From positions 974 to 64,973 of the IMG/VR virus record IMGVR_UViG_2786546475_000019: a stretch of DNA of 64,000 nt; one strand, written 5' to 3'. Position 1 is the first letter of the stretch, and every line of letters starts with the position of its first letter. The translations under genes were made by a program, and so were the position numbers. The DNA is from a virus. Below the pieces are notes generated by a model. It worked only from the letters and a program-made list of their open reading frames with translations. It did not search any database and had not been told where the DNA came from. This document shows, piece after piece, positions 1 to 59,374 of the stretch.

Positions 1-100
1 AAGGACCATGGACCAAGGACAAAATGATAAATCTGGAACTGGACCCCGGACCCGGACAGGCCGACCAAGGACCGTGGACCGTGGACCATGTTGACAGCAC
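1..100. repeat. Array of GGACC / CCGTGGACC motifs
   Basis: ggacc occurs about 9 times in 100 nt, for example ggaccgtggaccgtggaccatg. The same motif family recurs at 2428-2520. Confidence 0.6.
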
Positions 101-212
101 CTAACATGTTCGCCATCTTTGGTCGGCCTGTCCGCCCCAGCAAAAAGCCGGTTGATGTTTTGCCGCCCCAGGTGAAGGCCGGTTGTTGGGAGGTCGATCC
201 AGGTTATCATGT

Positions 213-264
213 GGGTGTTCAATTTTGCAACACCGACAAAAAAGTGTTGCAAAATTGAACACCC
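213..264. repeat. Perfect 22-bp inverted repeat (gggtgttcaattttgcaacacc / ggtgttgcaaaattgaacaccc) with an 8-nt spacer
   Basis: Arms at 213-234 and 243-264 are exact reverse complements. Lies in a non-coding region. Operator- or cruciform-like. Confidence 0.8.
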
Positions 265-355
265 CCCTGAAAGTGGGGTGTGCGGTATCGCACACCCCCT
301 GAAAGTGGGGTGTGCGATACCGCACGTGCGGAACCGCACAGTGAGCGGTATCGCT
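264..355. repeat. Two direct copies of cccctgaaagtggggtgtgcg followed by a series of short palindromes of the form GTGCG-N4-CGCAC
   Basis: 264-284 and 296-316 are identical 21-mers. The palindromes gtgtgcggtatcgcacac, gtgcgataccgcac, gtgcggaaccgcac and gagcggtatcgctc follow one another. Confidence 0.75.
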
Positions 356-665
356 CAGCTCAACTGCCCTATATTAGATACTTCGGTGTAGTCAATTTGA
401 CTACATGATAGATCGGCGATTTTGCCTAAATCCAAGGCATCGCTGCCCACGGTATAGGCACAAGGATATTAGACGGTAAAAACCGACATATTGTGAGCTT
501 TCCAGATCGCTTTCCCGAAAACTAAGTGTCCAGTAACTATTTCAAAGTATTTTCACGCGGGGAAAACCGATGAATGGGAGCCGCAGACAGCGTGCCTAAA
601 ATTCAGGCAGGTATAATTGGGGCGTTCCAAGCGAACACGGGCAAGCCAAGCCAAATTCGGCACGC

Positions 666-694
666 TTGTCAAGTTCCACGGGACTCGCTACACT
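666..694 (+). promoter_or_regulatory. Candidate sigma-70-type promoter (TTGTCA-17 nt-TACACT)
   Basis: A -35-like hexamer at 666-671, a 17-nt spacer and a -10-like hexamer at 689-694, upstream of the first gene. Read by eye only. Confidence 0.3.
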
Positions 695-739
695 GTATGC
701 TGTAGCGTTTGATCTTTGACAATTTGGTTTCTAGTTGGC

Positions 740-819
740 GGTTAAACTCGCTACGCGGTCCAAATATCGCGGACCACGTAGCGAGTTTAACCGGGCTTGA
801 ACGGTGACAGGTTCAAGCC
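740..819. promoter_or_regulatory. Two consecutive stem-loops (about 21-bp stem with one mismatch, then a perfect 9-bp stem) upstream of the gene at 856
   Basis: ggttaaactcgctacgcggtcc (740-761) pairs with gcggaccacgtagcgagtttaacc (769-792). ggcttgaac (794-802) pairs with gttcaagcc (811-819). Confidence 0.7.
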
Positions 820-855
820 TATTTCATTAAATCCTTATTTGGAAGGAATACCACT

Positions 856-2217
856 ATGTCACAAGAATCTAAACTTACCTCTGTTTTGTCGCTGCATTTC
901 GATTTTGACGCGAAGTCTTTACTTTGCGGCATGAATCCCGGTTCAGATCGATACTTGACGCCAAACCCGGTTCAATCGCTAGTAGATAGCTTATTTGCTG
1001 GTTGGAATAGCCAGGAAAGCTTGAAAGCCATCACTAATGGCAATCTCGCTAAAATCGATCCGCGATTCACTAAAGCGGACGACGTAGCTAGTTTCGCTGC
1101 TAAACAGCGTCAAACTTTCCGTTCTGAATTCAGACCGGGGACAGACTTGTGGGCAGCTCTTTGCGGCAAGTCTGACAAGTTCATCGCCATTGGACCAGCA
1201 CCTGCAAAGGGGCAGCCTGATGAACGTTTAAAGATTCCCGTTGAATCGATCTACGCGGTCCTTAATCTTTGGTGCGGTACCAAAGCGAATGGCATGACCG
1301 TATCGGGCAACAGGCGTATGCTTGCGCTACTGTTTGTTCTGGCCCTTGAATATGCGGAAGCATTCGCGGAAGCATTAGGGGCAGGGAAAACGAACGAAGA
1401 CGCGGAAGCTGTTGCTAAAAAGACAGTGAAAGCTCATCGGATTCCCGTAGTATTCAAATCGTGGGACACGTTCCAAGATTTGACTAGCGAGCAAATTGCG
1501 GACAATGAACGGGTTCACCAGTCCAACTATACGGAATTGGATCAGGTACGTTTGGCCGTTAAGATCAAACGCGAAGACTGGGGACTGTCCAAGCGGGATA
1601 TCGCTCGACAGATTCCGGGTTTGCGGACCGTAGCCAAAAAGACTGGCGAACTACGCATTAACCAGCGTAGGGCGTCCAATGCAACGGATCGTGCCGATCT
1701 TGTCATCTATGCCGATGACGGGCTGGATATGAACGTCATGGACCGGTTGACCACGGACAACGTAGAAAGCTACGTTGAAGGTGGACCGATTCCAGTGAAA
1801 CGGATCGCTTTCGAACACGTTCCCTTCCTCATCGACGCTACCAAAGAGTACAGCAGTACCCACGCTGCTATTCTTAAAGCGGTTTACCCTGATGCTGTTT
1901 TCAGTGAAGGGGAGGCTATTGGCATCGATGCCGATTCTAAAGCTTTGGAACGCTATTTTCGGTATATTATCGAACATAGCGGTTCAGCGAAACAAGCTTT
2001 GACGATCAAGCAATTACGCGATGCGATCACAAAAATTCCGTCGTCCAAAGACGTGGAAGTATCGCTACGCAAGCTGTACGAAGTGATTGCCGCTGGCGAT
2101 CCAAACGCACTAGCGTTACCAGCTTTGAAAGCTTCAGCGTGGGCCACAATTGTGGATCGCGAAGCGGAAGCGGAAGCGGAAGCGGAAGCGGAAGCGGAAG
2201 CGGAATCCGCCAACTAG
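856..2217 (+). CDS. hypothetical protein with a C-terminal (Glu-Ala)n tail
   Basis: 453-aa ORF with a GGAAGGA ribosome-binding site 8 nt upstream. Ends in EAEAEAEAEAEAEAEA, encoded by 8x GAAGCG at 2161-2208. Confidence 0.6.
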   Translation: MSQESKLTSVLSLHFDFDAKSLLCGMNPGSDRYLTPNPVQSLVDSLFAGWNSQESLKAITNGNLAKIDPRFTKADDVASFAAKQRQTFRSEFRPGTDLWAALCGKSDKFIAIGPAPAKGQPDERLKIPVESIYAVLNLWCGTKANGMTVSGNRRMLALLFVLALEYAEAFAEALGAGKTNEDAEAVAKKTVKAHRIPVVFKSWDTFQDLTSEQIADNERVHQSNYTELDQVRLAVKIKREDWGLSKRDIARQIPGLRTVAKKTGELRINQRRASNATDRADLVIYADDGLDMNVMDRLTTDNVESYVEGGPIPVKRIAFEHVPFLIDATKEYSSTHAAILKAVYPDAVFSEGEAIGIDADSKALERYFRYIIEHSGSAKQALTIKQLRDAITKIPSSKDVEVSLRKLYEVIAAGDPNALALPALKASAWATIVDREAEAEAEAEAEAEAESAN

Positions 2218-2230
2218 AAACCCTTAGCCG

Positions 2231-2263
2231 CGGACCGGTCCAATTTGGACCGGTCTATTTTTA
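2231..2263 (+). terminator. Rho-independent terminator candidate
   Basis: A 9-bp GC-rich stem (gaccggtcc / ggaccggtc) with an aatt loop, followed by tatttttat. Sits immediately after the stop codon of the 856..2217 gene. Confidence 0.6.
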
Positions 2264-2273
2264 TGCCCTTGGA

Positions 2274-2334
2274 ATATCAACTAGCTGCACGCAATATCAA
2301 ATAGCTGCACGCAATATCAACTAGCTGCACGCAA
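2274..2334. repeat. Three tandem 20-bp direct repeats (atatcaa[c/a]tagctgcacgca)
   Basis: Copies at 2274-2293, 2294-2313 and 2314-2333. Confidence 0.85.
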
Positions 2335-2427
2335 ACCCGGTAGGGGTTTATCACAAGTCGTTGCACCCAGGAACAATACCGGGGTCCGTCGCCCTTAACG
2401 CGACGACACAAGCATGATATTTTGTGC

Positions 2428-2520
2428 CACGGTCCCCGGACCTAGCTACTCGGACCTAGCTACTCGGACCATGCACCCTGATCCACGGACCATGATCCAC
2501 GGACCACGGACCAAGCTACT
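2428..2520. repeat. CGGACC-motif array with roughly 14-bp periodicity
   Basis: cggacctagctact occurs twice, followed by cggaccatgcaccctgat, ccacggaccatgat, ccacggaccacggaccaagctact. A ttctgaa-ttttt-tcagaa palindrome lies at 2612-2631. Confidence 0.7.
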
Positions 2521-2687
2521 TAGGCCAAAACACAATGATACTGGGGTAGGGGTTCAGAATCCGCCGGTCCGTGGACCAAAGAACTTCATTAACGTTTCCT
2601 CTGAAAATTATTTTCTGAATTTTTTCAGAATTAGGGGCAATCCGTCCTGCCCTCATTCGTATCTATAGGGAAGTCCACCTACTGATA

Positions 2688-3257
2688 ATGATAATGACAA
2701 GAAAACTTTATCCAGCATTACCTGATCACCCTGAGTACCGTTGCAAGTCCACGGCTCAAAACAAACATTGTACGTTTCTATCATGTGACGGACTTCGCAA
2801 ACTGAATCTGTACGACGATCCAAGGCAATCTGATAAATGTCCCAAGCACGCCGGACGACCACCAAGTAAACAAACAGCTTTGGCAAAGTACATGGACACC
2901 CATCCTCATGAGGTGGGTTATCATTTGCCGGACCAAGCACCAAAGGTGCATTCCCAATCCCGAAGTGTCGCCGAAGAACTTCACATTCTCCGCACACTTC
3001 TTCAAAACACCCTGAACCAATGCAATACGTCGCTCGACTTACTCGCTAACACTGAGCGAATGACAGTCTTAAGTGATAAGATTGCTAACTTGATAAAAAC
3101 TGACGTATTCCTCGAAGAAAAAACAAAGAACTCCTTGACGCGGGACCAAATCATGGCCGTGCTCTCGGAGATACAACAAGTGATAACTCGGCATTGTTCG
3201 CCGGAGCAGGTCGCACTGATCCGTCAAGACTTCCAAGAACTAACCATTCCTGACTAA
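2688..3257 (+). CDS. hypothetical protein (Cys/His-rich N-terminus)
   Basis: 189-aa ORF following a repeat-rich intergenic region. Confidence 0.45.
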   Translation: MIMTRKLYPALPDHPEYRCKSTAQNKHCTFLSCDGLRKLNLYDDPRQSDKCPKHAGRPPSKQTALAKYMDTHPHEVGYHLPDQAPKVHSQSRSVAEELHILRTLLQNTLNQCNTSLDLLANTERMTVLSDKIANLIKTDVFLEEKTKNSLTRDQIMAVLSEIQQVITRHCSPEQVALIRQDFQELTIPD

Positions 3258-3585: not shown

Positions 3586-5217
3586 ATGTCATACGCAGAC
3601 GAAACAACAGCAAAAGCAGCCGTAGCAAATGCCATTGGCAACGCAACAAGCGTCGATCCAGTGAGCAATACGGAACATGCTGACGTTCTTGATAATTTGA
3701 TCGAGAACATCTTCGCCGCTGATGGTATCACTGTGTATTTCGCCGAACCTCTGTCGGGACTTGGCGATGACGGCGACGTCACAATCTACGAAAACAAAAT
3801 CTACTCGAAAGCTGCCGGAACATGGTCCGAGGAACTTGAATTAACAAGCTGGACTTTCAATACTGCTGATCCTCCCACGTCCACGTCTCACACTTATGCA
3901 ATCTCGACAACCGGCCAATTATACGTAAACGTCGCCGGAACATGGACCTTGCAGCAGTTATCATTAGGCAAATACAAAGGTGCTCACTCAACCACCACAA
4001 AGTATTACGCCAATGATATTATCCTCTACTCAGGGGAATTGCAGTACGCTAACAGCACGCACAATCCTAAGACATATGACGCCGCAGACTGGACTTCGCT
4101 ACCTACTGCGTCATCAACCCACGTACTCCACGATGATATCTCAACACTTCCTTCCTCCCCGGACGGTTACACGCTTGAACTATATGACGGGATCGGCGAG
4201 GGGATGCTCTTTGAGCGGGTATCAAGTGCGTGGGTTTACCGAACACAGACAACAACTCCAGTTGTTGACCTAACCTCTGGCAACGCTTCAACGATTGCAG
4301 CATATTTGTCCGCTGGTCAAATATATCGGTACAATTTAACGACAGGCGAACCATACTACGTTGATAACGCCGGAGCACGGACCTCGCTTCCTCCAATCCA
4401 AACCGCCGTAACAGCCCTACCGTCAATTGTAGACGGTCCCGATCTATTGGTTTGGACCACGGACCCTGACGGGCATCGAGCGTACTTTAAAGGAGCTTCC
4501 GCGTACCAGAAGCTCCCACTTGTCCCAAGTATCCAAGAGTCCGATCAATCACTTTCGGAGAATCGGGAACTAGCGTACAACGCCCGAACACTATCATTCG
4601 ACGGTGACGGCACATTCCGCTTCGGAGACTTAAGCGACAACACCGACGGATATTATGCGGCCTTCAACTCCGGTGCGTTACAGTGGGCCAATGCTACACC
4701 GGAAACGAACCTCACGTCCATCACCCCTACCATTGTCAATTCGCAAAACCTAGCTCTGGTAAACGACGGCACTAGCAACAGTTTCACGTTGAAATACGCA
4801 GGAAGCCAAGATCAAGACTTTACGTTTCCAGCAGATCTTCCAGCTTTAGGTAATATTCTGGAAGTCACGGGCCTTGCAACAAGTTCCATTGTAGTAGGCT
4901 GGCGTAAGCCCGTAAAAGACTGGTTCACGCTAACCTCAGCCACCCCAACTGTGACAGTTGACGGCAATGATAGCAAACGCTTTAAACTTGACCCTGGGCA
5001 CACTCCAATTACAATTGCTTTCACTAATTGTGAGCAACATGATTTTGTTCTCCTCAAGATACGAGGTCACGCTACAAACTCAGTGTCAATGCCTGCCGGA
5101 GCAGACGGTGACGTTTTCTCTCTTAGTACGGATGATACAAAAGCAACTTTAGTCACAGCTATCATTGATGGTTCCGCCATCCATCTTGGCGTAATGAGGG
5201 ACGTATCATGGGCTTAG
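3586..5217 (+). CDS. tail fibre-like protein (Thr/Ser/Asn-rich)
   Basis: 543 aa with composition typical of fibre or receptor-binding proteins. Overlaps the next beta-helix gene. Confidence 0.45.
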   Translation: MSYADETTAKAAVANAIGNATSVDPVSNTEHADVLDNLIENIFAADGITVYFAEPLSGLGDDGDVTIYENKIYSKAAGTWSEELELTSWTFNTADPPTSTSHTYAISTTGQLYVNVAGTWTLQQLSLGKYKGAHSTTTKYYANDIILYSGELQYANSTHNPKTYDAADWTSLPTASSTHVLHDDISTLPSSPDGYTLELYDGIGEGMLFERVSSAWVYRTQTTTPVVDLTSGNASTIAAYLSAGQIYRYNLTTGEPYYVDNAGARTSLPPIQTAVTALPSIVDGPDLLVWTTDPDGHRAYFKGASAYQKLPLVPSIQESDQSLSENRELAYNARTLSFDGDGTFRFGDLSDNTDGYYAAFNSGALQWANATPETNLTSITPTIVNSQNLALVNDGTSNSFTLKYAGSQDQDFTFPADLPALGNILEVTGLATSSIVVGWRKPVKDWFTLTSATPTVTVDGNDSKRFKLDPGHTPITIAFTNCEQHDFVLLKIRGHATNSVSMPAGADGDVFSLSTDDTKATLVTAIIDGSAIHLGVMRDVSWA

Positions 5218-7058
5218 GATTAGGATTAAACATGGGCTTGTTTCCTTTACCATCGGTTAAAGCAACATTGGACAACCGTCCTTTGTTCACGTCGCTTGCA
5301 TTTTTGCAATGGCGTCGCGATATAGTAACTGCAAAAGAACGCCCCACGTATTGGATCCCTCAAACAGAGTATTACGTCAGTGAATCGACCGGTAACGACG
5401 CTAACGCTGGAACAGAAGTCGCCCCTTGGCAAACACTTGAAAAAGCTCAACAAGTTCTTGACGCTTTGTCTGATGAATCGTATACCGTTATACGGCTCAA
5501 ACGTGGTGATACTTGGGAAGAAGAAGGAACTGTTTTAGCGGTAGACGGAAACTCGTGCTTACTGCGACTGACAAAGACGTTCAGCGGGATCAGTTCTTAC
5601 GGGTCCGGTGACCTGCCGTTTATCAATCAATTTGCTACCAAATACACGTCGGGTTGGACTGTTCACAGTGGGAACGTCTACGTCCGATCGGAAGCCAATG
5701 ATATTGTTAGCGTTCGGCTAACAACTGATCGCCTTGTACCTTTTTACGACGCCACAGACGCTACAGATTGTGCTACCGATATTGCTGACACAAACGGCTC
5801 ATATTTTTATGATGCGACTGGCAACAACTTATATGTCAACCTTGGCGGTACTGATCCGAATACAGTAACGATTGAAGCTGCAATTTCTAATGATGACACA
5901 GTTGAAGCGGTAGCACATGGTTGTTTCATCGAGAACATTCGGCTCGACGGCACGTTAAAAAGAACAACAAGGGACGAGCAGGCGGGTATCCGTTTAAATA
6001 TCAATGGCAGTGAAGTCGCAAGAATCGAGAACTGTGAAGCGTATTATGGTTCGTCTCACCTGATACACCAGAACGGTTTAACCGGGACTGGCGGCATCGG
6101 TATTATCAAGAATTGCAAAGCTGGCTATTCGCTCTGGAATACTGGCGGAAACACGATTTTCAATTCATACACATTAGGCGGCGATCAAGAGACTTATGTC
6201 CAAGACTGCGAGGTTCCTTATGGAACATTACCAGGTCACGAGTGGACGTCGACTAACTCAGCACACGATGCTTTAGATGGTTCAGCGTTTTATTGTCATG
6301 CTGGTGGCGGGGCAAACACTGGGTTTATCCTCGTCGATGGGATGAAGTGCGACCATGATAACGCTTGGGGTCCGCAAGAAGGGTCTTACAATGGTAGTGC
6401 TCCAGCAGCAGCAACAATCGAAGACGCCAAGGTAGTTGTCTTCGGAGAGGTCGTAGATAACAGCCGACTTGGGTTGCGATGTTTCCGATTATCACCTGCG
6501 AACGGAGTTGGAATTTGCAACACGTACACAGGAGGCTACGGCACCGATAGAAATTACCGAGCACTTTCAGCAACAAACCAAAGCGGCTTTATGTTTAATT
6601 GTCGCTTCGACGTTTCTCTCCCTGCTGGACTATTTAACGCTCACGGATTCTGGAACGGTTCTGGAACGTCAAATGTAAGCTGGTTCTTTAACCGTTTTAT
6701 CCAACGAGCTTCTCACGGATCGCATGATCTTGCGTTTAATTATGACTCCGTTTCTACATGGCCTGACAGCACGCTTTACAACAACGTTATCGCTCGCGTT
6801 GGAACCTATGATAACTCGGTCGCTATGTATAACGGCACTCCCGATTCCAACAACAATGCTCTGTATCAATTCAAAGGGGCGAACGCAGGAGCAAACTCAA
6901 TTGACATTACAACCGAGGCCGAAGCGGTTCAAGACACAGCAAATGTTGATACTTACGGTACATGGGAAGCTGCAAATACAGCAATCGGAGTTGTGCCTGA
7001 GTACGACAGGCTTCTGAACCCGCGAACAGCAACAACAAGCATTGGAGATTTGGCGTAA
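5208..7058 (+). CDS. parallel beta-helix (pectate-lyase-like) tailspike / depolymerase candidate
   Basis: 616 aa. Repeated N/G/T-rich beta-helix-like segments (NIRLDGT, IENCEAYYGSS, IKNCKAGYS, QDCEVPYG). Confidence 0.45.
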   Translation: MGLGLGLNMGLFPLPSVKATLDNRPLFTSLAFLQWRRDIVTAKERPTYWIPQTEYYVSESTGNDANAGTEVAPWQTLEKAQQVLDALSDESYTVIRLKRGDTWEEEGTVLAVDGNSCLLRLTKTFSGISSYGSGDLPFINQFATKYTSGWTVHSGNVYVRSEANDIVSVRLTTDRLVPFYDATDATDCATDIADTNGSYFYDATGNNLYVNLGGTDPNTVTIEAAISNDDTVEAVAHGCFIENIRLDGTLKRTTRDEQAGIRLNINGSEVARIENCEAYYGSSHLIHQNGLTGTGGIGIIKNCKAGYSLWNTGGNTIFNSYTLGGDQETYVQDCEVPYGTLPGHEWTSTNSAHDALDGSAFYCHAGGGANTGFILVDGMKCDHDNAWGPQEGSYNGSAPAAATIEDAKVVVFGEVVDNSRLGLRCFRLSPANGVGICNTYTGGYGTDRNYRALSATNQSGFMFNCRFDVSLPAGLFNAHGFWNGSGTSNVSWFFNRFIQRASHGSHDLAFNYDSVSTWPDSTLYNNVIARVGTYDNSVAMYNGTPDSNNNALYQFKGANAGANSIDITTEAEAVQDTANVDTYGTWEAANTAIGVVPEYDRLLNPRTATTSIGDLA

Positions 7059-7309
7059 TGCTACTAAACATAACTGATAAACACGGTGTCACTGTGGGTG
7101 TTGTTGAAGCAGACACCTTGGAGAAAGCTTCCAAGCTCGCAAGAGATCACGTCACCAAGTTGGTAGATCCTCCTGCTCCTGACGGCACTCCAGGCATGAA
7201 GTACCCTAAGACTGAAAGCTCTGATTTGTTCATCGCATTCTTCCGAGAAGAAACTGATAAGCGACCAATATTGAAATTCAAATTCAAGCCACTTGATGTG
7301 ATCAAGTAG
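7058..7309 (+). CDS. hypothetical protein
   Basis: 83-aa ORF whose start overlaps the previous stop codon. Confidence 0.4.
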   Translation: MLLNITDKHGVTVGVVEADTLEKASKLARDHVTKLVDPPAPDGTPGMKYPKTESSDLFIAFFREETDKRPILKFKFKPLDVIK

Positions 7310-7320
7310 TTAATAGACCA

Positions 7321-8034
7321 ATGAAAGAAATTTTAGATTCACTATCACTAATCGGGCTGTTTGTGCTATCCATCGTAACGATCATGCATTTCGTACAGCT
7401 TGACAATCGAGGCGAGTGGATGCGACAAGTGCAAGAAAATTTTGACTACGGACAGCGATGCAGCTTGCACGATTTGAAGCAAACCATCAAAGCAAACAAT
7501 TTAATAGAGCCTGATTTTGCACCGCGTCCTCCAGTCCCTGAACCGTTTTGGCGAGAAACTACAACGTCTGCAAAATCAGACACCTGCCCACATTGTAATG
7601 TACCAATGAGATTTTTTGATTGTGTTGGAACCGTTCGGGCGTGGCGTATTATCATCGCACATTCTCTGATCAGTGCGATGTATCTGGGTATTGCGTTTTT
7701 CCGTTTTCTTCCGGCTGGAATGGAAGCACGAACGCAAACGGAACGAGTTGTTTGGTATTCGCTCGCGTTTATCTTCCCGTTTTGCTGGGCTGCGGGATAC
7801 GGGACGACGATACTCGCCGGCTGGTTTCCTGCTTTGGCGTACTTTTTGAAAGAATCAGCGTGCTACGTTGACGCTGCATTTTGTGTTACTTTTCTATGGT
7901 CGACGCGAAATCAAAATTTGGTTTCGGTTACTGTTGATAGTTTTCGAGACGAAATTGAAGACATTGTCAACAACGAAGACTCTGACTTATCTCACGGCGA
8001 CCGCATTCAGCAGATTCGAGACTCTTTGCAATGA
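7321..8034 (+). CDS. polytopic membrane protein
   Basis: 237 aa with at least 4 hydrophobic helices. Confidence 0.45.
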   Translation: MKEILDSLSLIGLFVLSIVTIMHFVQLDNRGEWMRQVQENFDYGQRCSLHDLKQTIKANNLIEPDFAPRPPVPEPFWRETTTSAKSDTCPHCNVPMRFFDCVGTVRAWRIIIAHSLISAMYLGIAFFRFLPAGMEARTQTERVVWYSLAFIFPFCWAAGYGTTILAGWFPALAYFLKESACYVDAAFCVTFLWSTRNQNLVSVTVDSFRDEIEDIVNNEDSDLSHGDRIQQIRDSLQ

Positions 8035-8408
8035 ATATCTGGCTCTTGATGCAAGAATCGACAGCCCCTGGAATGCCTGCATGGGTGGGGTTCGTCACTG
8101 GTACGGGAGGTGGTCTAGTGATGGCAATTTTCGGACTGATTGCGTTGTGGAAGCGAATGATCTTCAAGGAAACACAGTACGAAAAACGGCTCGAAACGAA
8201 AGACAAAGAAGTCAATCAAATCGGGCGAGAGTTCGTTGAACTATCGATAAAGATGTTGGAACGGGACGAAAAAAACCGGGAAAACGATAAGGCAATCCGC
8301 GATGGTTTCGACAGACTAATTGAGCACGTTAAAACCGACTCACTTAAAATGGAGAATTGGCGGAAAGAGGTGGATCGAATATTGGCACAGCTGGTACCCC
8401 GTAAGTAA
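8031..8408 (+). CDS. membrane-anchored coiled-coil protein (i-spanin-like architecture)
   Basis: One N-terminal transmembrane segment followed by a charged, coiled-coil-like region. Confidence 0.35.
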   Translation: MNIWLLMQESTAPGMPAWVGFVTGTGGGLVMAIFGLIALWKRMIFKETQYEKRLETKDKEVNQIGREFVELSIKMLERDEKNRENDKAIRDGFDRLIEHVKTDSLKMENWRKEVDRILAQLVPRK

Positions 8409-12961: not shown

Positions 12962-13218
12962 ATCCAGTAGCTCACACCCTTCGATTGATATCAGTGACAG
13001 CAACAGCCGAAACTCTTAAGAGCCAAAACGATTTGTTCCACGGAGCTTCGGAAATTCGAGTGACCCCTGCTGCTGATATTACAATGAAGGATTTGCAGAC
13101 GGGAGCTTCTGTTACATTAACTTCCGGCCAAACACATTCCCTACCTGCCGCTAACGTTGCGACAGAATTTCAATTCACCACAAGTGGAGCCGAAGTGTTC
13201 CAAGTTTACTCCGCATGA
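12952..13218 (+). CDS. hypothetical protein (the position would suit a small terminase subunit; no supporting motif)
   Basis: 88 aa, start/stop-coupled to the terminase large subunit gene. Confidence 0.3.
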   Translation: MSMNPVAHTLRLISVTATAETLKSQNDLFHGASEIRVTPAADITMKDLQTGASVTLTSGQTHSLPAANVATEFQFTTSGAEVFQVYSA

Positions 13219-14894
13219 TAACTGAACTGTTTGACCATTTAGCCGAAAGCTTAACCCACAGCACAATCACAAATTGTGCTCAGTGGGCGTTAGAGCGTAG
13301 GGTTATGGGACGACCGTTCGAGGGCCCATGGAATTTTAAATTATTTCCGTGGTTATACACTCCGCACGTTTCCAACCATCCATTTCGGTTGGCATTGAAA
13401 GGTGCTCAATTAGGGTTTACAGAGTGGGCAATTAACGAAGCTTTTTACGCTATTGATCATAAGCGTTCAAATGTTTTATATTGTCTGCCTACAAAGGGCA
13501 ACGCGGGTGACTTTTCAACCACCCGCTTCAACCCTGCCCTAGCCCTTAGCCCCTATATCGCGAACTTGTTCTCTGGTGCAGATAATGTATCATTGAAGAC
13601 GGCAGGTTCTCGGTCACTGTATATTAGGGGTTCAAAGGCTAGAGCAGACTTGAAGTCTTTGCCAATTACTGTTTTGATACTTGACGAAATTGATGAAATG
13701 CCTAAAGAGTCAATCTCTCTAGCTCATCATCGTCTTGATGGACAAGCCGTAGGTTCAACTTCATTGCTTGAATTATCAACTCCTACTCTACCTGATATGG
13801 GGATTGACGCTGAGTACAAATTATCAAACCAGATGATTTACGTATTCCAGTGCCCAGGATGTAGCAAGTATATTGACTTGCAATACCCTAGGAATTTTAA
13901 GCTAACTGCTACGCGAATGAACGATCCTGACATTGAAAAGAGTTATTTCTTTTGTCACGAGTGTGATTACGTAATAGACCACGAAGCCAAACCAGAGATT
14001 TTTAAATGCAAGGAAATGGGCGGCACGGGTCACTACAGACCGCAAGTAAAATATGCTGACCGAGAAGGGTACTATGTAAATCAAATGTACTCCTCGGCCA
14101 AAGGCGGAACGCCAATTGAGTGGGCTAAAGCCGTAATACTTGCAGAAACAAATCCGTCAAAAGAACAAGAGCTTTGGAACTCTAAAGTTGGTAAAGGCCA
14201 TGCAACAGAGAACGCAAAGCTAGAAGAAGGAGTCTTAGAGCAGCATAAGCGAAACTACACTATTGCCGACTACGAACTCCATGATAATCGTATTAGAACA
14301 ATTGGGTGTGATGTTGGAGCAGTTTGCGATTTAGTGTGCTTAGAGTGGACGTGGGAGTCTGATCTTGGCCTGCCTAATGATAGATACCGTCCTCGACTGG
14401 TAGGTGAATTATCATTGCCCCGATCTTCGGAAGATGCCCGAGCCATTTTGGACTACTTCCGAAAGATGAACGCTCATATGTTTGTTATGGATTCCGAACC
14501 TGAAAGTCGTTTTGCTCGACAAGTCATCAATTTGCTAGGCGACTATGGGTTCATGTGTGATTATGGGAAAGGATACAAAGCAGGACAAGTTAATGTTAAA
14601 GAAGAAGATGGCTTTATCACTGTAAATCGAACTACATGGTTGGATATAACTATGTCTCGATTCACAGCTGCTAACAAAGACGGAACAGATTTACCTAGCG
14701 ACATAAGCGAACGATTCCTTCAACATATGACAGCCCCTGCTAGATATTACAAAGATGATGCAAATGGCGACCCCATAGCTATTTACAAAAATGAAAAAGC
14801 GGATCACTTGTTTCATGCGTGGACCTACGCTGAGATAGGATTGCCTCTTTACTTCCTAACAGCCGAAGGCGAAGATATCGATGTTATCTTTTAG
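13215..14894 (+). CDS. terL: terminase large subunit (GpA-like)
   Basis: 559 aa, N-terminal ATPase-like region (KGAQLGFTEW..., LILDEIDEM Walker-B-like). Sits immediately upstream of the portal/scaffold/capsid run. Confidence 0.55.
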   Translation: MITELFDHLAESLTHSTITNCAQWALERRVMGRPFEGPWNFKLFPWLYTPHVSNHPFRLALKGAQLGFTEWAINEAFYAIDHKRSNVLYCLPTKGNAGDFSTTRFNPALALSPYIANLFSGADNVSLKTAGSRSLYIRGSKARADLKSLPITVLILDEIDEMPKESISLAHHRLDGQAVGSTSLLELSTPTLPDMGIDAEYKLSNQMIYVFQCPGCSKYIDLQYPRNFKLTATRMNDPDIEKSYFFCHECDYVIDHEAKPEIFKCKEMGGTGHYRPQVKYADREGYYVNQMYSSAKGGTPIEWAKAVILAETNPSKEQELWNSKVGKGHATENAKLEEGVLEQHKRNYTIADYELHDNRIRTIGCDVGAVCDLVCLEWTWESDLGLPNDRYRPRLVGELSLPRSSEDARAILDYFRKMNAHMFVMDSEPESRFARQVINLLGDYGFMCDYGKGYKAGQVNVKEEDGFITVNRTTWLDITMSRFTAANKDGTDLPSDISERFLQHMTAPARYYKDDANGDPIAIYKNEKADHLFHAWTYAEIGLPLYFLTAEGEDIDVIF

Positions 14895-33403: not shown

Positions 33404-33612
33404 GCCAAAGCCAACTTGAAGCTTACGCCAGACAACGTAAGTTTAGGCCCAAGATGGAAAATGTTCAAATTTGTGAACAGTGCGACCACTTAATACGTGA
33501 TCGCTACTGTTCCAAATTTGGCAAGTGTCCTGACGCTCAAAAAGATTTCTTTAAAGCCCTTGAACGAAGTAAATGTCCTTTAGAGAAATTTCCGTCGCAG
33601 CTCAGCGAATAG
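33400..33612 (+). CDS. small zinc-ribbon protein
   Basis: CEQCDH...CSKFGKCPD. Confidence 0.35.
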   Translation: MSQSQLEAYARQRKFRPKMENVQICEQCDHLIRDRYCSKFGKCPDAQKDFFKALERSKCPLEKFPSQLSE

Positions 33613-33996
33613 AATTCTAACTTGCTTAGGAGTTAACTCTAACAAACGCCCGATTTCCGAATACGTATAGTATTGAAGTCGTAAACTTACAGCCCATCGC
33701 TCCTCGACAGTTAGCCTATCTAGGTCAAACTGATCGAGGAATTCTTCTGCACTTCTTGATAATTCTTCAATATCGCCTAACGCTTCGGTATCATTGTTTG
33801 TTTGCATTTTCTTTCGACGACGGTAAGCGTCAATACCTCTCGACCGTAGTAAGGTTCTTAAGTGTGAGATGAATTTCTTTTCCTCAACTAGCTCATGATA
33901 ATTCTCCCACGCTTGTAAAAATTCCAAAGATAGCGAGCAGTCAAATTTAGTTTCAAACTCTCGCAACAAGTAAACATAATCGTCGATCCTTCGCAT
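33580..33996 (-). CDS. HTH protein resembling sigma-70 region 4
   Basis: C-terminal YSEIGRLLELTPKQVRILFAELRRK. Last gene of the minus-strand nucleotide operon. Confidence 0.4.
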   Translation of the reverse strand: MRRIDDYVYLLREFETKFDCSLSLEFLQAWENYHELVEEKKFISHLRTLLRSRGIDAYRRRKKMQTNNDTEALGDIEELSRSAEEFLDQFDLDRLTVEERWAVSLRLQYYTYSEIGRLLELTPKQVRILFAELRRKFL

Positions 33997-37585: not shown

Positions 37586-38236
37586 TTAAACCATATTCAA
37601 AGTAATTGGAGGTTTGTCGCTTTTTAAAAGTTTAGCTAGCTTTTCTAACGCTCGCTTTTCAAGTTGACGAACTCTTTCTCGCGAGATATTAAGAGTTTCC
37701 CCAATAGTCTTAAGAGGAATCCCTTGGGCTCGTAGCCTCAAAACTAAAGCATCTCGACTATTTAACTCAAGAAAAGCTTTTTCTAGAGCAATAAGCTCCT
37801 CTTGCCATTCTATCAAATCCCTATCAAGACATTCTAAAGGTGTAACAGGGTTATTAAATAGCCCGTGTAAGGTTTGAAACATTGGAGCACGAGCTATAGC
37901 AGCTTTAGCTCTGTCAAGATGAGCTGGATTTGGAGATACTTTAATTAACTCCACCTTGGTTTTCATGTAAGTTATCATTCGTTGTTTCACCCACGGAGTG
38001 GCGTAAGTTGAAAACTGATAACCTTTACTAGGGTCAAATTTTTTGACCGCCTGACATAACCCACTCATTCCTTCTTGAATTAAATCGTCTAAATCAAGCT
38101 TAGAATTTTTCTTGGCAAAAGACACCGCTATCTTGATAACCAATCCTTGATTATCTAACACTAACCGATTGAGTGCTTCATCAGCTTCCTTTCTAGCAGA
38201 ATGATATTTTTGTAATAACTCGTCATTAGTATCCAC
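37586..38236 (-). CDS. RNA polymerase sigma factor (sigma-70 family, group 3/4-like)
   Basis: Region 2 (GLVIKIAVSFAKKNSKLDLDDLIQEGMSGLCQAVKKFDPSKGYQFSTYATPWVKQRM) and region 4 HTH (LKTIGETLNISRERVRQLEKRALEKL). Confidence 0.7.
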   Translation of the reverse strand: MDTNDELLQKYHSARKEADEALNRLVLDNQGLVIKIAVSFAKKNSKLDLDDLIQEGMSGLCQAVKKFDPSKGYQFSTYATPWVKQRMITYMKTKVELIKVSPNPAHLDRAKAAIARAPMFQTLHGLFNNPVTPLECLDRDLIEWQEELIALEKAFLELNSRDALVLRLRAQGIPLKTIGETLNISRERVRQLEKRALEKLAKLLKSDKPPITLNMV

Positions 38237-51284: not shown

Positions 51285-51629
51285 TCAGTCTCCTCTTATC
51301 AATTGATAAATTTCTTTGTAAGTATGTACTGGCATATTATACTTGTCCGCTATATCCTGCCAGTTCTCTTCCCACCAGCTAAAAGAATGACACTGACCCC
51401 CAACTTTCAACACTCCAAAGTCTTGGTTGACTTCTACTTTGCGGCCGTGTAAAATTCCGAGTGTTATCAGTTTGCCGTAGCCGTAGCCGTAGCCGTAGCC
51501 GTAGCCGTCGCCGTCGCCGTAGCCGTCGCCGTAGCCGTAGCCGTAGCCGTAGCCGTCGCCGTAGCCGTAGCCGGTCCCGTAGCCGGTCCCGTAGCCGGTC
51601 CCGTAGCCGTCGCCGTGGTTACTTAACAT
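51285..51629 (-). CDS. protein with an N-terminal (G-Y-G / D-G-Y)n low-complexity repeat
   Basis: About 50 residues of GYGTGYGTGYGYGDGYGYGYGYGDGYGDGDGYGYGYGYGYG, encoded by a GCCGTAGCC tandem DNA repeat at 51477-51620. Followed by a 60-aa globular tail. Confidence 0.45.
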   Translation of the reverse strand: MLSNHGDGYGTGYGTGYGTGYGYGDGYGYGYGYGDGYGDGDGYGYGYGYGYGKLITLGILHGRKVEVNQDFGVLKVGGQCHSFSWWEENWQDIADKYNMPVHTYKEIYQLIRGD

Positions 51630-58592: not shown

Positions 58593-59017
58593 ACCTCATT
58601 AACAAATTGATATCATTTTCGATAACAGATTCGAGAAAGCCCGAAACAACCAGACTTCACCCTATAGCTACGAGTGGCGGGATATCGGATTGCCCCACAA
58701 AATGAAAATAAATCGAGTTAATGGAAATTGATACGAAACTTTAATGACGTTTCCAGTGCAGCGTTATCATTATTCTCTCACGTACGCGAAGCCATTAACG
58801 TTTTTGATACTCAAACCTTTAATTTAAGCTTCTACTTCTTATGGGTACGAGGTGAAAGTAAAATATAGTAGTAGTGTAAATATTATAAGGATTTCAGCCG
58901 CTCAGGCGAGCTTCTGATAAGAAAACGTTAATGAGCCAAATTTTACGTTAAATTGGTATGTTTCGACGGGAATTGATACCGTCTCACTGCTCTCCTCCCG
59001 AACCTTGCATCTTGGCT

Positions 59018-59082
59018 CACGCTACACGTATCACGCTACACGTATCACGCTACACGTACGCGTAGCACGTGGGTACGTGCCA
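59018..59082. repeat. Three 14-bp direct iterons (cacgctacacgta[t/c]) followed by tacgcgta and cacgtg palindromes
   Basis: Copies at 59018-59031, 59032-59045 and 59046-59059, then cgcgtagcacgtgggtacgtgcc. Confidence 0.8.
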
Positions 59083-59374
59083 GGGCCAAAGACCTTGAGT
59101 TCTCTTTTAAGTCTCGGAACTGACGTGTAAATTAGTAAGCGGTTATCATTTTGCGTGAGCAAATGATAATTCTCGCGTGCTCCCGCGTGTCCCGCACGTG
59201 CGACTATTTAAATACGCGACGTGCGTAAATGATATGATACATGGTTTTCAAAATACTTGAAAATATTTTCAAAATACGGGGCAATCCTGCCCGGTTTTAT
59301 TCGTAGCTATAGGGGGAAAGTAGACTGTTTTACTTTCCAAAACGACTATCATATCATTTGTGGAGAAGTCCAAC

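What the first reader, a model, noticed from the sequence alone, without database searches (positions are those of the whole stretch)
1..855. Gene-free 855-bp left region made almost entirely of nested repeats and hairpins
It contains a GGACC-motif array (1-100); a perfect 22-bp inverted repeat (213-264); two 21-bp direct repeats; a chain of GTGCG-N4-CGCAC mini-palindromes (264-355); a 16-bp palindrome tagtcaatttgacta (about 388-403); a cgctaca-N8-tgtagcg hairpin (about 686-707); a roughly 21-bp-stem hairpin (740-792); and a 9-bp-stem hairpin (794-819). Such density suits a packaging (pac/cos) site, a regulatory hub for a DNA-binding protein array, or a structured non-coding RNA. It lies about 12 kb upstream of the terminase gene, so a terminus or packaging role is possible but not implied.
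Basis: seen in the sequence. Interest (0 to 1): 0.6.

Follow-up and report, generated by a model that had tools for sequence, protein, structure and literature searches.

The report
Repeat-packed control region of marine phage
The 855-base stretch is real and far more repeat- and hairpin-rich than chance allows, but it is only half of a 1.66-kb gene-free region inside a circularly assembled marine phage genome; it most likely holds arrays of protein-binding sites (probably for DNA packaging or replication) followed by the structured leader of an orphan gene, which is an ordinary kind of phage feature in an unusually elaborate form.

Summary
Every listed repeat is present. The stretch folds 11-14 SD better than shuffles and holds the three most fold-prone 300-nt windows of the genome.

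It is not a left end. Sister contigs read straight across window position 1, and the gene-free region extends 804 nt further upstream. That upstream part holds the most AT-rich segment of the genome, flanked by CCGCCCCA-core iterons.

The region is composite:
- Phased GGACC heptads, 10 contiguous, with a second array downstream of orphan gene 856-2217.
- Four 14-bp GTGCG-N4-CGCAC palindromes.
- Long inverted repeats.
- From about 690 to 855, the gene's leader. Hairpin 794-821 keeps its stem through compensatory changes between two strain types.

No Rfam family, tRNA, DnaA box or canonical parS was found. The orphan protein has no detectable family.

Two new leads:
- The same heptads, together with a perfect parS-like 16-mer, lie just upstream of the large terminase gene in an unrelated IMG/VR phage lineage.
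- The iteron core CGCCCCA is a genome-wide motif found 13:0 on one strand, and it is densest here.

Best reading (0.35): a packaging-recognition or DNA-end region at the junction of the replication and virion gene blocks. Rivals are an iteron origin (0.25) and a ParB- or omega-like regulatory array (0.2). This is a new member of a known kind, of moderate interest.

The parts
1..90 (+). Tail of the upstream GGACC heptad array, units (A/G)TGGACC or AAGGACC. The full array runs from window -46 to 89 and has 10 contiguous heptads in strain type A and 7-8 in type B.
   Evidence: cores at 3, 10, 41, 48, 69, 76, 83; spacing is 7 or a multiple of 7 within sub-arrays; copy number differs between strains
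53..134 (.). Inverted repeat with 19-nt arms (53-71 / 116-134) enclosing three heptads and a mini-hairpin, CATGTT-N10-AACATG (88-109). In type B the right arm gains two inverted heptads (GGTCC).
132..193 (+). Two degenerate 31-nt iterons, CCGCCCCAG...CCGGTTG. They are diverged copies of the 28-nt iteron CCGCCCCAAGTTAGAACAGGTGATTTGT, present 3 times upstream of the window, and of the 30-nt coding repeats in the 3' end of the upstream gene.
207..270 (.). Long inverted repeat with 27-nt arms (21 bp perfect) and a 10-nt spacer.
263..357 (.). Two 32-nt direct repeats, each a CCCCC-TGAAAGT-GGGG mini-hairpin plus a palindrome, and four 14-bp palindromes GTGCG-N4-CGCAC (280, 312, 326, and the variant at 343). 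Type B has five, with invariant half-sites and different spacers. The boundary between the 100%-identical and ~90%-identical parts of the two strain types falls here. Type-B assemblies also break here, at a poly-G run.
387..403 (.). Palindrome GTAGTCAA-T-TTGACTAC. It is deleted in type B. A half-related copy lies just after the stop codon of the upstream gene (L001 158-173).
423..609 (.). Two copies of TGCCT-N7-AGGCA (423-439 and 593-609). The second abuts a perfect TATAAT (611-616) inside a ~60-nt block that is identical in both strain types.
666..707 (+). Sigma-70-like promoter candidate TTGTCA-17-TACACT (666-694), overlapping the hairpin CGCTACA-N8-TGTAGCG (686-707), which is followed by TTTGATCTTT.
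   Evidence: consensus scan only; the total number of hits is not above shuffles; hairpin identical in both types
726..741 (+). Left arm of a perfect 16-nt inverted repeat, GGTTTCTAGTTGGCGG. The right arm, CCGCCAACTAGAAACC (2207-2222), covers the stop codon of gene 856-2217.
   Evidence: I12; kept in type B with a 1-nt bulge; chance expectation about 0.002 for 3.7 kb (own estimate)
739..793 (+). Hairpin H1 with 23-bp arms and a 9-nt loop. The apical stem contains a GGTCC/GGACC pair.
   Evidence: -39 to -41 kcal/mol, z about -10; three substitutions between strains leave Watson-Crick or wobble pairs
794..821 (+). Hairpin H2 with a 10-bp stem, followed by TATTTCATT. The stem sequence differs between strain types but pairing is kept.
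   Evidence: GGGCTTGAAC/GTTCAAGCCT against GGGCTGGGTC/GATCCAGCCT, -16.5 and -17.2 kcal/mol
841..2217 (+). Shine-Dalgarno sequence GGAAGGA (841-847) and the orphan gene (856-2217, 453 aa, with an (EA)n C-terminal tail). This is the gene that the two heptad arrays flank.
   Evidence: only one distant homologue (P0002); no family, no structure match
2232..2256 (+). Intrinsic terminator of the orphan gene, with a stem built from GGACC/GGTCC. Type B has a different GGACC-stem terminator.
2273..2334 (.). 20-bp tandem repeat AATATCAACTAGCTGCACGC, 3.1 copies (4 in L001).
2431..2580 (+). Downstream GGACC heptad array, with 8-9 cores spaced by 7, 14 or 21 nt.
2633..2670 (+). Promoter-like element GGGGCAATCC-N13-TCGTATCTATAGGG, which opens the next transcription unit. 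Two more copies lie at 58697-58660 (-) and 59277-59314 (+).

Best explanation
Window 1-855 is the right-hand half of a 1.66-kb gene-free region (window -804 to 855). It lies in a ~72-kb, circularly assembled, virulent-type marine phage genome, at the junction between the replication genes (ParB-like, helicase, PolA, ligase) and the block that runs into the virion genes.

The region is a mosaic, not one element.

(a) SHOWN: several families of repeats of the protein-binding type.
- CCGCCCCA-core iterons on both sides of the most AT-rich 120 nt of the genome.
- GGACC heptads phased at 7 bp, in arrays on both sides of orphan gene 856-2217.
- Four or five 14-bp palindromes.
- Long inverted repeats.

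(b) SHOWN: the last ~170 nt form the structured leader of the orphan gene. This comprises a 23-bp hairpin, then a 10-bp hairpin whose pairing is kept by compensatory changes, then the Shine-Dalgarno sequence. The gene ends in its own terminator.

(c) INFERRED: an oligomerising DNA-binding protein coats the contiguous heptads, as omega does on pSM19035 heptads. Dimeric proteins occupy the palindromes. Together they build a large nucleoprotein complex at this module junction.

(d) INFERRED, my committed guess: this complex is the recognition platform at which concatemeric DNA is engaged and cut by the packaging machinery (pac/cos or DTR-boundary type). The dense, co-oriented CCGCCCCA cluster then acts like terminally clustered Chi sites that shield the resulting DNA end.

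The iteron and AT-rich half may additionally, or instead, be the replication origin.
For: - The repeats and hairpins are far beyond chance, and this is the top fold-prone region of the genome.
- The region is contiguous in four other contigs, and the genome closes on itself.
- Heptads are spaced by exact multiples of 7. Copy number varies between strains (10 against 7-8) while the unit is kept. A second array lies 215 nt beyond the gene's stop.
- Palindrome half-sites are invariant and spacers vary between strain types.
- H2 shows compensatory stem changes, and the terminator is replaced by a different GGACC-stem terminator.
- In an unrelated IMG/VR lineage (TerL 61-100% identical among 7 loci), non-coding arrays of 4-10 GGACC[GA]T heptads lie at the junction DUF7227-DUF932 | array | (TerS) TerL. 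In 5 loci they are 205-330 nt upstream of TerL, the classical position of packaging recognition sites.
- CGCCCCA occurs 21:1 on the + strand, and 13:0 outside the locus. Simulation gives a mean of 2.2 and a maximum of 7. The distant relative L005 has CCGCCCCA twice on the same strand as its polA gene and none on the other strand (2:0).
- Co-oriented, terminally clustered Chi sites are documented in phages LLS and MD8 (PMC12315714).
- TerL's only, weak relatives are Herelleviridae terminases (22-24% identity). From general knowledge, those phages have fixed ends remote from the terminase gene.
Against: - No DNA end has been mapped, and the assemblies are circular.
- The contig breaks all fall in repeats, so assembler failure explains them.
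- The region is 12.4 kb from TerL, and no small terminase was identified.
- The heptad-bearing lineage has an unrelated TerL, so the parallel is positional, not homologous.
- Those heptads also lie upstream of a promoter-like conserved block, so a transcriptional role fits equally well.
- The AT-rich tract and iteron layout is the textbook look of an origin.
- The polar motif could have another meaning, and its active orientation cannot be deduced.
- No binding protein is identified. The orphan protein's ParB-like motifs (GNRR...IP...DNER...HTH) get no statistical support (hhalign probability 0.2%; Pfam, PDB and NCBIfam all negative).
Confidence: 0.35

Rival explanations
1. Iteron-type replication origin with its control region. 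An initiator binds the CCGCCCCA...GGTGAT iterons on both sides of the AT-rich tract and melts it. The heptad arrays flanking gene 856-2217 act like P1 incC/incA or P4 ori/crr arrays, and the orphan gene would be the origin-binding protein.
For: - The most AT-rich 120 nt of the 72-kb genome (GC 20.8%) lies at window -685 to -566.
- Direct repeats of 28-31 nt, all in one orientation, lie on both sides of it. There are at least 4 in the 3' end of the upstream gene, 3 downstream, and 2 degenerate copies in the window. From general knowledge, this resembles the lambda ori iterons inside gene O.
- The region lies directly after the replication module.
- Repeat arrays flank a gene on both sides.
Against: - No DnaA box, even with 1 mismatch, in the 1.66 kb.
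- The cumulative GC skew has its minimum at 59-62 kb and its maximum at 33 kb, not here, although skew follows gene orientation.
- The divergent 58.6-59.4 kb intergenic region next to the primase-helicase gene is an equally good origin candidate.
- The orphan protein matches no Rep, initiator or winged-helix family.
- The iteron core is dispersed genome-wide on one strand, which is not how origin iterons behave.
Confidence: 0.25
2. Centromere-like or silencing array without a packaging role. One of the phage's ParB-like proteins, a small omega-like protein, or the orphan protein itself nucleates on the heptads and palindromes and spreads. This would auto-regulate gene 856-2217 and gate the promoter at 2633 that opens the next operon.
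For: - Two genes with ParB_N + HTH_ParB domains (59360-60403 and 63388 onward).
- At least 4 contiguous 7-bp repeats is the requirement of omega-type sites (PMC9499535).
- In the other phage lineage the same heptads sit next to a perfect parS-like TGTTYCACGTGRAACA.
- The downstream array ends 55 nt before the promoter-like element at 2633.
- GGACC/GGTCC pairs also form the apex of H1 and the terminator stem.
- The only distant homologue of the orphan protein also has a short-repeat array (CCAAGAGCC) downstream of it.
Against: - No canonical parS in the window with up to 3 mismatches.
- No ParA was seen among the proteins scanned.
- The gene content is that of a virulent phage: sigma factors, thymidylate synthase, PolA, and no integrase among the proteins scanned.
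- No RHH protein was identified.
- The orphan protein's resemblance to ParB is not significant.
Confidence: 0.2
3. Mostly non-functional DNA. It would be a slippage- and recombination-prone spacer in which tandem and inverted duplications accumulate, with only the promoter, leader and terminators of the neighbouring genes functional.
For: - Copy numbers of the 30-bp, 20-bp, 14-bp and 7-bp repeats differ between assemblies.
- Indels remove whole elements, such as the palindrome at 387-403 in type B.
- The non-coding iterons resemble the coding repeats of the neighbouring gene, as duplication remnants would.
Against: - The upstream half is 100% identical between strain types except for repeat copy number.
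- The palindrome half-sites are kept while spacers change, and hairpin pairing is kept by compensation.
- The same heptad recurs in arrays in an unrelated phage lineage at a fixed genomic position.
- A 1.66-kb spacer is costly in a capsid-limited genome (general reasoning).
Confidence: 0.1
4. The region chiefly encodes one or more structured non-coding RNAs. One example would be a ~90-nt RNA from the TATAAT at 611 to the hairpin and T-run at 686-715. Another would be a long hairpin RNA processed by RNase III.
For: - Very strong folding z-scores.
- A 60-nt fully conserved block around TATAAT, followed by a terminator-like hairpin.
- Compensatory changes in H2.
Against: - No Rfam family at gathering threshold. 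The permissive scan gives only sub-threshold miRNA-hairpin look-alikes.
- Both strands fold equally well, as expected for DNA palindromes.
- The substitutions in H1 favour neither strand consistently.
- The heptads, iterons and 14-bp palindromes are better explained as duplex DNA sites.
- Only two sequence types are available, so covariation power is minimal.
Confidence: 0.05

Closest known systems
Phage T5 injection-stop-signal (iss) region in the left terminal repeat
   Same: [quoted passage not shown]
   Different: The T5 region carries paired DnaA boxes and lies inside a mapped 10-kb terminal repeat. Here no DnaA box is present, termini are unmapped, and the phages are unrelated.
pSM19035 omega (RHH ParB) heptad parS sites
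   Same: Contiguous 7-bp repeats occur in direct and inverted orientation, in arrays of 7-10. At least 4 contiguous units are needed for function, and the arrays lie upstream of promoters (PMC9499535).
   Different: The heptad sequence is different. No RHH protein or ParA (delta) was identified, and the context is a virulent phage rather than a plasmid.
Packaging recognition sites made of short repeats (P1 pac hexamers, SPP1 pacL/pacR boxes, lambda cosB R sites) and the 7-bp SRL/SRR arrays next to the T7 terminal repeat (own knowledge, not checked in a paper here)
   Same: Arrays of short phased repeats flank a central segment. The position is at a module boundary. The same heptads lie upstream of TerL in another phage lineage.
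   Different: The region is 12.4 kb from TerL. No cleavage site or small terminase is known. Here the arrays flank a whole gene (2.4 kb apart), not a ~100-bp cleavage region.
Iteron origins with flanking control arrays (lambda ori in gene O; P1 oriR-repA-incA; P4 ori/crr) (own knowledge)
   Same: Same-orientation iterons lie next to the most AT-rich tract. Some iterons lie in the 3' end of a coding gene. A gene is bracketed by repeat arrays.
   Different: There are no DnaA boxes and no recognisable initiator. The GC skew does not point here. The iteron core is also dispersed, strand-specifically, over the whole genome.
Terminally clustered, co-oriented Chi sites of phages LLS and MD8
   Same: An over-represented octamer lies almost exclusively on one strand (21:1 here; 20:3 and 32:0 there), with a dense cluster at one place in the genome (PMC12315714).
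   Different: The host and its Chi sequence are unknown. The motif here is embedded in 28-31-nt iterons. No link to RecBCD or AddAB was tested.

Membership tests
pac/cos packaging site | Mapped DNA end or cleavage site in virion DNA | not testable with these tools
   No reads are available. All assemblies are circular or break in repeats.
pac/cos packaging site | Location within or next to the terminase genes | tested here: not met
   TerL lies at 13215-14894, 12.4 kb away. No small terminase was recognised near the region.
pac/cos packaging site | Arrays of short repeats that bind the recognition subunit | tested here: inconclusive
   The arrays are present and phased. Identical heptads lie upstream of TerL, or of TerS-TerL, in another lineage. 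The binding protein is unknown.
Iteron-type replication origin | Three or more same-orientation direct repeats next to an AT-rich unwinding element | tested here: met
Iteron-type replication origin | DnaA boxes or a recognisable cognate initiator gene | tested here: not met
   No TTWTNCACA with up to 1 mismatch in the region. The adjacent orphan proteins match no family.
Iteron-type replication origin | Strand-compositional switch at the site | tested here: not met
   The cumulative GC skew extremes are at ~61.6 kb and ~33 kb. This is confounded by gene orientation.
ParABS centromere (HTH-ParB type) | Canonical 16-bp parS palindrome | tested here: not met
   No match to TGTTTCACGTGAAACA with up to 3 mismatches in 64 kb.
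ParABS centromere (HTH-ParB type) | ParB and ParA genes | tested here: inconclusive
   Two ParB_N + HTH_ParB genes are present. No ParA was seen among about 45 proteins scanned, but the scan was not exhaustive.
Omega-type heptad centromere or operator | At least 4 contiguous 7-bp repeats | tested here: met
   10 contiguous heptads in type A, 7-8 in type B.
Omega-type heptad centromere or operator | RHH DNA-binding protein encoded nearby | not tested
   Small ORFs were not systematically searched for RHH folds.
T5 iss | Paired DnaA boxes inside inverted repeats within a terminal repeat | tested here: not met
   the terminal repeat status is unknown
Described non-coding RNA family (Rfam 15) | Covariance-model match at gathering score | tested here: not met
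   0 matches in 64 kb. The permissive scan gives only miRNA-hairpin look-alikes at 21-33 bits against thresholds of 56-95.
Intrinsic terminator (hairpin 794-821) | GC-rich stem followed by a U-tract | tested here: inconclusive
   The stem is conserved by compensation. The tail TATTTCATT is weak, although the consensus scan flagged the site. The hairpin lies 35 nt before the start codon, so it could be a leader or attenuator hairpin instead.
Insertion sequence (for the 16-nt inverted repeat 726-741 / 2207-2222 around the orphan gene) | Terminal inverted repeats plus transposase homology, target duplication and multiple copies | tested here: not met
   The inverted repeat is present. The protein matches no transposase family and has only 2 clusters in 5.8 billion proteins. 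No flanking duplication is seen. The homologue locus L006 has no such inverted repeat.
ParB/Srx-fold protein (for the orphan protein 856-2217) | Significant profile match to ParB_N or HTH_ParB | tested here: not met
   hhalign against a 32-sequence ParB alignment gives probability 0.2%. No Pfam hit at E up to 10. No PDB hit. AlphaFold pLDDT is 38-41, which is unusable. Only a motif-level resemblance was seen by eye.

The most novel reading that the evidence does not exclude
GGACC[GA]T heptad arrays may be a transferable 'genome-start' module used by unrelated tailed phages, partnered with parS-like or other palindromes. A ParB-type or other spreading protein would mark the concatemer for packaging there. 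The iteron core CCGCCCCA would then be a previously unrecognised Chi-like polarity signal of an uncultured marine host, clustered next to the DNA end. The orphan 453-aa protein bracketed by the arrays would be a new kind of recognition or early-entry protein.
Probability: 0.15. Interest if true: 0.65.

Novelty: new member of a known kind. Interest (0 to 1): 0.4.

Why it matters
If the packaging or DNA-end reading is right, the locus gives the physical ends and packaging signal of a widespread but uncultured Tara Oceans phage. No cultured relative was found: blastn and PolA tblastn gave no match in 50,697 phage records.

It would also give a heptad motif that can be used to find genome starts in other metagenomic phages. 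The strand-polar octamer could reveal the Chi sequence, and so help identify the host.

If the region is instead the origin or a regulatory array, it is a well-delimited and testable example, but of an ordinary kind. Either way the case is a warning. The 'left end' of a metagenomic contig was here an assembly break inside a repeat.

Tried and rejected
- **Known RNA families and tRNAs.** None found.
- **Similarity to cultured phages.** blastn of window 1-3000 found no match, and PolA tblastn found no match. TerL and the capsid protein give only 22-30% hits.
- **Exact-pattern scans.** A conserved 27-31-mer of the region found nothing in IMG/VR or JGI metagenomes. The iteron pattern gave 73 single chance hits and no arrays in IMG/VR. 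A TerL-based locus search found nothing. The PolA-based search gave one distant contig (L005) with no comparable gap.
- **Function of the orphan protein.** No hits in Pfam, PHROGs, NCBIfam, a PDB profile search, or tblastn against plasmids and phages. A 1.84-billion-protein HMMER search gave one homologue. Two AlphaFold runs reached pLDDT 38 and 41, so no fold search was attempted. hhalign against ParB gave probability 0.2%.
- **The minus-strand 168/258-aa ORF.** Rejected as coding, because the frame is not kept between strains.
- **IS element or invertible segment** for the 16-nt inverted repeat. Rejected (see the membership test).
- **DnaA boxes and canonical parS.** Absent.
- **Strand of H1 from substitutions.** I first read the pattern as favouring a plus-strand RNA. 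Folding both strands of both types showed no consistent preference, so I withdrew the claim.
- **fold_alignment on two sequences.** It gave no double-sided changes because MAFFT misaligned H2. The compensation is visible only when each hairpin is folded on its own.
- **ATGATA/TGATAA motif.** It is only ~2.8-fold enriched and is common genome-wide, so I did not pursue it.
- **The ~355-aa ORFs next to heptads in several IMG/VR loci.** Most are probably spurious arginine-rich reading frames.
Full report
**1. What is there.**

- GGACC occurs at 3, 10, 41, 48, 69, 76 and 83.
- An inverted repeat has a 21-bp perfect core (213-233 / 244-264) inside 27-nt arms.
- Two 22-nt perfect direct repeats lie at 263-284 and 295-316.
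- Three exact GTGCG-N4-CGCAC palindromes and one GAGCG/CGCTC variant lie at 280-356. That is 3 observed against 0.04 expected.
- A palindrome lies at 387-403.
- Hairpins lie at 686-707, 739-793 and 794-821.

As a single strand the 855 nt fold 11 SD (+ strand) and 14 SD (- strand) better than dinucleotide shuffles. After regression on GC, the 300-nt windows starting at -56, 44 and 144 are the three most fold-prone of the whole 65 kb. No ORF exceeds 74 aa. The long minus-strand ORF called in public annotation runs through the heptad array and loses its frame between strains.

**2. It is not a left end, and it is only part of the feature.**

The orphan protein of the first gene is encoded on Tara Oceans scaffolds of 72.2-72.3 kb. 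Another strain sits on a 71.4-kb scaffold in which the region is internal. These contigs read straight through window position 1, which lies inside the heptad array.

Joining the pieces closes a ~72.1-kb circle. The true gene-free region runs from the stop codon of a 185-aa gene (window -805) to the start codon at 856, a length of 1.66 kb.

All contig ends fall in repeats:
- the 30-bp coding repeat (L001, L007);
- the heptad array (the window itself, L003);
- a poly-G run with palindromes at about 270 (L009, and the N-gap in L002).

Assembler failure is therefore a sufficient explanation for the contig ends.

**3. Anatomy of the whole locus (window coordinates).**

- From about -896 to -805: at least 2-5 copies of a 30-bp repeat, CCGCCCCAAGCGGAAGCAGGTGATGCCGAG. 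They encode a PPQAEAGDAE tail of the upstream gene.
- -685 to -566: the most AT-rich 120 nt of the genome, GC 20.8%.
- -460 to -303: three 28-nt iterons, CCGCCCCAAGTTAGAACAGGTGATTTGT. Two of them sit inside a 79-nt repeat.
- -46 to 89: GGACC heptads. Ten are contiguous in strain type A and seven or eight in type B.
- 53-134: a 19-nt-arm inverted repeat around three heptads.
- 132-193: two degenerate iterons.
- 207-270: the long inverted repeat.
- 263-357: the 32-nt repeats and the 14-bp palindromes.
- 387-403: a palindrome that is absent from type B.
- 423-439 and 593-609: two TGCCT-N7-AGGCA sites. The second abuts a perfect TATAAT inside a 60-nt invariant block.
- 666-694: a weak sigma-70-like promoter candidate.
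- 739-793 (H1) and 794-821 (H2): hairpins.
- 841-847: the Shine-Dalgarno sequence.
- 856-2217: the orphan gene.
- 2232-2256: its terminator.
- 2273-2334: a 20-bp repeat, 3-4 copies.
- 2431-2580: a second heptad array phased at 7, 14 and 21 nt.
- 2633-2670: a promoter-like element, GGGGCAATCC-N13-TCGTAnCTATAGGG. It recurs at the heads of the two divergent units at 58.66-58.70 kb and 59.28-59.31 kb.
- A perfect 16-nt inverted repeat (726-741 / 2207-2222) brackets the gene.

**4. Genome context.**

The phage has a virulent-type gene set:
- a primase-helicase (DUF5906), an SNF2 helicase and a Dda-like helicase;
- PolA, ligase and an exonuclease;
- thymidylate synthase, a dNMP kinase and two DNA methyltransferases;
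- two sigma-factor-like genes;
- two proteins with ParB_N + HTH_ParB domains.

TerL (13215-14894) resembles only Herelleviridae terminases, at 22-24% identity. Nothing in the phage collection matches the DNA or PolA. The region lies between the last gene of the rightward replication operon and the block that leads into the virion genes.

**5. Comparative evidence within the species.**

Two strain types exist: A (window, L001, L007) and B (L002, L003, L009). They are 99.6-100% identical up to window ~260 and again from ~2612. In between they are only 80-93% identical. The palindrome array, the leader, the orphan gene and the downstream arrays therefore form one mosaic block.

Within that block:
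- The palindromes keep GTGCG/CGCAC while their 4-nt spacers differ, and their number changes from 4 to 5.
- H2 has a different stem sequence but the same 10-bp pairing, at -16.5 and -17.2 kcal/mol.
- H1 tolerates three transitions that remain Watson-Crick or wobble pairs. Which strand benefits differs between the types, so no strand can be inferred.
- The terminator is replaced by another GGACC-stem terminator.
- Heptad, 20-bp and 30-bp copy numbers vary.
- The orphan protein is 95-96% identical at the protein level, against 90-93% at the DNA level, so it is a real gene under purifying selection.

**6. The orphan protein.**

Two searches of 5.8 billion proteins and one exhaustive HMMER search of 1.84 billion representatives found only one distant homologue, P0002 (31% identity over 140 aa). 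Its 4.4-kb contig also carries a short-repeat array (CCAAGAGCC, 5 copies) in the next non-coding gap.

By eye, both proteins show a ParB-like string (G/A-x-R-R ... IP ... QIADN(D/E)R..QSNYT..(D/E)QV ... HTH). This gets no statistical support: hhalign probability is 0.2%, Pfam and PDB are negative, and AlphaFold pLDDT is 38-41. The protein's function remains open.

**7. Leads from outside.**

(a) Scanning IMG/VR for three contiguous GGACC[GA]T heptads gave 32 loci.
- Seven belong to one lineage, with a Terminase_6C TerL that is 61-100% identical among them.
- In that lineage, non-coding arrays of 4-10 heptads lie at the junction DUF7227-DUF932 | array | TerL, with a TerS in between in L097.
- In five of the loci the array is 205-330 nt from the TerL start.
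- Four of the seven (L100, L105, L110, L114) also have a perfect parS-like TGTTYCACGTGRAACA between the array and TerL. L102, which belongs to the same lineage by its DUF7227 and DUF932 genes but ends before TerL, has one about 45 nt from its array. A sixth copy, in L113, lies about 5 kb from that locus's array.
- That TerL is unrelated to the window's TerL.
- So the same heptad marks the head of the packaging/virion block in an unrelated phage group.

(b) The iteron core CGCCCCA occurs 21 times on the + strand and once on the - strand of the 72-kb genome.
- Outside the repeat locus the count is 13:0, in both plus-gene and minus-gene blocks. A Markov simulation gives a mean of 2.2 and a maximum of 7 in 300 runs.
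- The distant relative L005 has CCGCCCCA twice, both on the strand of its polA gene.
- The orientation never flips around the circle, which points to a unidirectional process.
- Phages LLS and MD8 show the same pattern for Chi, with 20:3 and 32:0 and clustering near one genome end (PMC12315714).

**8. Interpretation.**

Shown:
- The region is a set of duplex-DNA repeat families of the protein-binding type.
- The last ~170 nt carry conserved RNA-type hairpins directly in front of the ribosome-binding site of an independently terminated gene.

Inferred:
- The contiguous heptads are coated by an oligomerising protein. The omega protein of pSM19035 needs at least 4 contiguous 7-bp units (PMC9499535).
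- The palindromes bind dimers.

My committed guess, at 0.35, is that this complex is the packaging-recognition or DNA-end region, with the CCGCCCCA cluster acting as a Chi-like shield. It rests on four things:
- the positional parallel with the TerL-proximal heptads;
- the polar-motif pattern;
- the weak kinship of TerL to fixed-end phages;
- the T5 precedent of a 1662-bp repeat-laden non-coding region near a terminus (bioRxiv 10.1101/866236).

The main rival, at 0.25, is an iteron origin. It is favoured by the AT-rich tract between the iteron arrays and by the neighbouring replication genes. It is disfavoured by the absence of DnaA boxes, by the GC skew, by the lack of a recognisable initiator, and by the genome-wide dispersal of the iteron core.

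A ParB- or omega-like regulatory array without a packaging role gets 0.2. Largely non-functional repeat DNA gets 0.1. A principal ncRNA gets 0.05. These readings are not mutually exclusive across sub-segments.

**9. Verdict.**

This is a real and statistically extreme feature, correctly described but mis-framed as a genome end. It belongs to the familiar class of cis-acting repeat regions at phage module junctions (origin, packaging or regulatory). Its unusual features are heptad arrays bracketing an orphan gene and an iteron core that doubles as a genome-wide polar motif. Interest is moderate, at 0.4. Read-level terminus mapping on public Tara data would decide most of the open questions.

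Noticed in passing
whole window; e.g. 5340, 12769, 25288, 25533, 36132, 44387, 48559, 52616, 53210, 55011, 56655, 61472; clusters at 132-171 and L001 30-650: The 7-mer CGCCCCA (mostly within CCGCCCCA) is almost exclusively on the + strand: 21:1 in the 72-kb genome, and 13:0 outside the repeat locus against ~2.2 expected. This holds regardless of gene orientation. A distant relative (L005) has it 2:0 on the same strand as its polA gene. The pattern resembles the co-oriented Chi sites of phages LLS and MD8.
   Followed up: partly
2633-2670 (+), 58660-58697 (-), 59277-59314 (+): A bipartite promoter-like element, GGGGCAATCC-N13-TCGTA(T/G)CTATAGGG, with fixed spacing, lies at the head of three transcription units. 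It is unlike the sigma-70 consensus. The phage encodes sigma-factor-like proteins at 37586-38236 (-) and 33580-33996 (-).
   Followed up: partly
L100 5630-5645, L102 3941-3956, L105 314-329, L110 2790-2805, L114 5403-5418 (IMG/VR loci): In an uncultured phage lineage, a perfect chromosomal-type parS (TGTTYCACGTGRAACA) lies 12-70 nt upstream of the large terminase gene in four loci, preceded by GGACCGT heptad arrays; in L102, whose contig ends before TerL, it lies about 45 nt from the array. I know of no described role for parS at a terminase gene.
   Followed up: partly
window ~263-277; L002 20950-20990; L009 1-10: In strain type B, two independent assemblies break at the same point. One shows a run of at least 15 G followed by a scaffold gap, and the other starts with 9 G. 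Either this is a real hypermutable homopolymer, or it is an artefact at a hairpin or a DNA end.
   Followed up: no
726-741 and 2207-2222: A perfect 16-nt inverted repeat brackets the orphan gene, from the 5' leader to the stop codon. It is kept in type B with a 1-nt bulge. It could pair the mRNA ends. An IS origin was rejected.
   Followed up: partly
5208-8300 against L009 4916-7500: The genes after 5.2 kb (616 aa and neighbours) are unalignable between the two strain types, which are otherwise 98-100% identical around them. They are probably host-range or tail-fibre cassettes. The 2-6 kb segment also has a GC skew opposite to the rest of the plus-strand block.
   Followed up: no
51470-51615 (- strand gene): A long, perfect-to-imperfect GTAGCC/GTCGCC hexamer repeat lies inside a coding region, giving a Gly-Tyr/Gly-Asp-rich repeat protein. 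It also accounts for several of the most strand-skewed k-mers.
   Followed up: no
58593-59359: The divergent intergenic region between the primase-helicase and ParB-like genes has its own repeats (CACGCTACACGTAT, 3 copies at 59020-59060), palindromes and AT-rich stretches. It lies at the cumulative GC-skew minimum and is an alternative origin candidate.
   Followed up: partly
2161-2205 and L001 1-150: Two coding tandem repeats border the locus. One is (GAAGCG)n, which encodes the (EA)n tail of the orphan protein and is absent in type B. The other is the 30-bp repeat that encodes PPQAEAGDAE in the upstream gene, with 2 to at least 5 copies.
   Followed up: partly
protein P0003 (= gene at 63388 onward): NCBI lists this phage ParB-like protein under a metagenome-assembled 'Acidobacteria bacterium' genome. 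The 72-kb phage contig was probably mis-binned, so that label should not be taken as the host.
   Followed up: no
2680-2700: GATAATGATAATGA at the start codon of gene 2688 matches the first 12 nt of the Fur-box consensus GATAATGATAATCATTATC (consensus recalled from memory).
   Followed up: no
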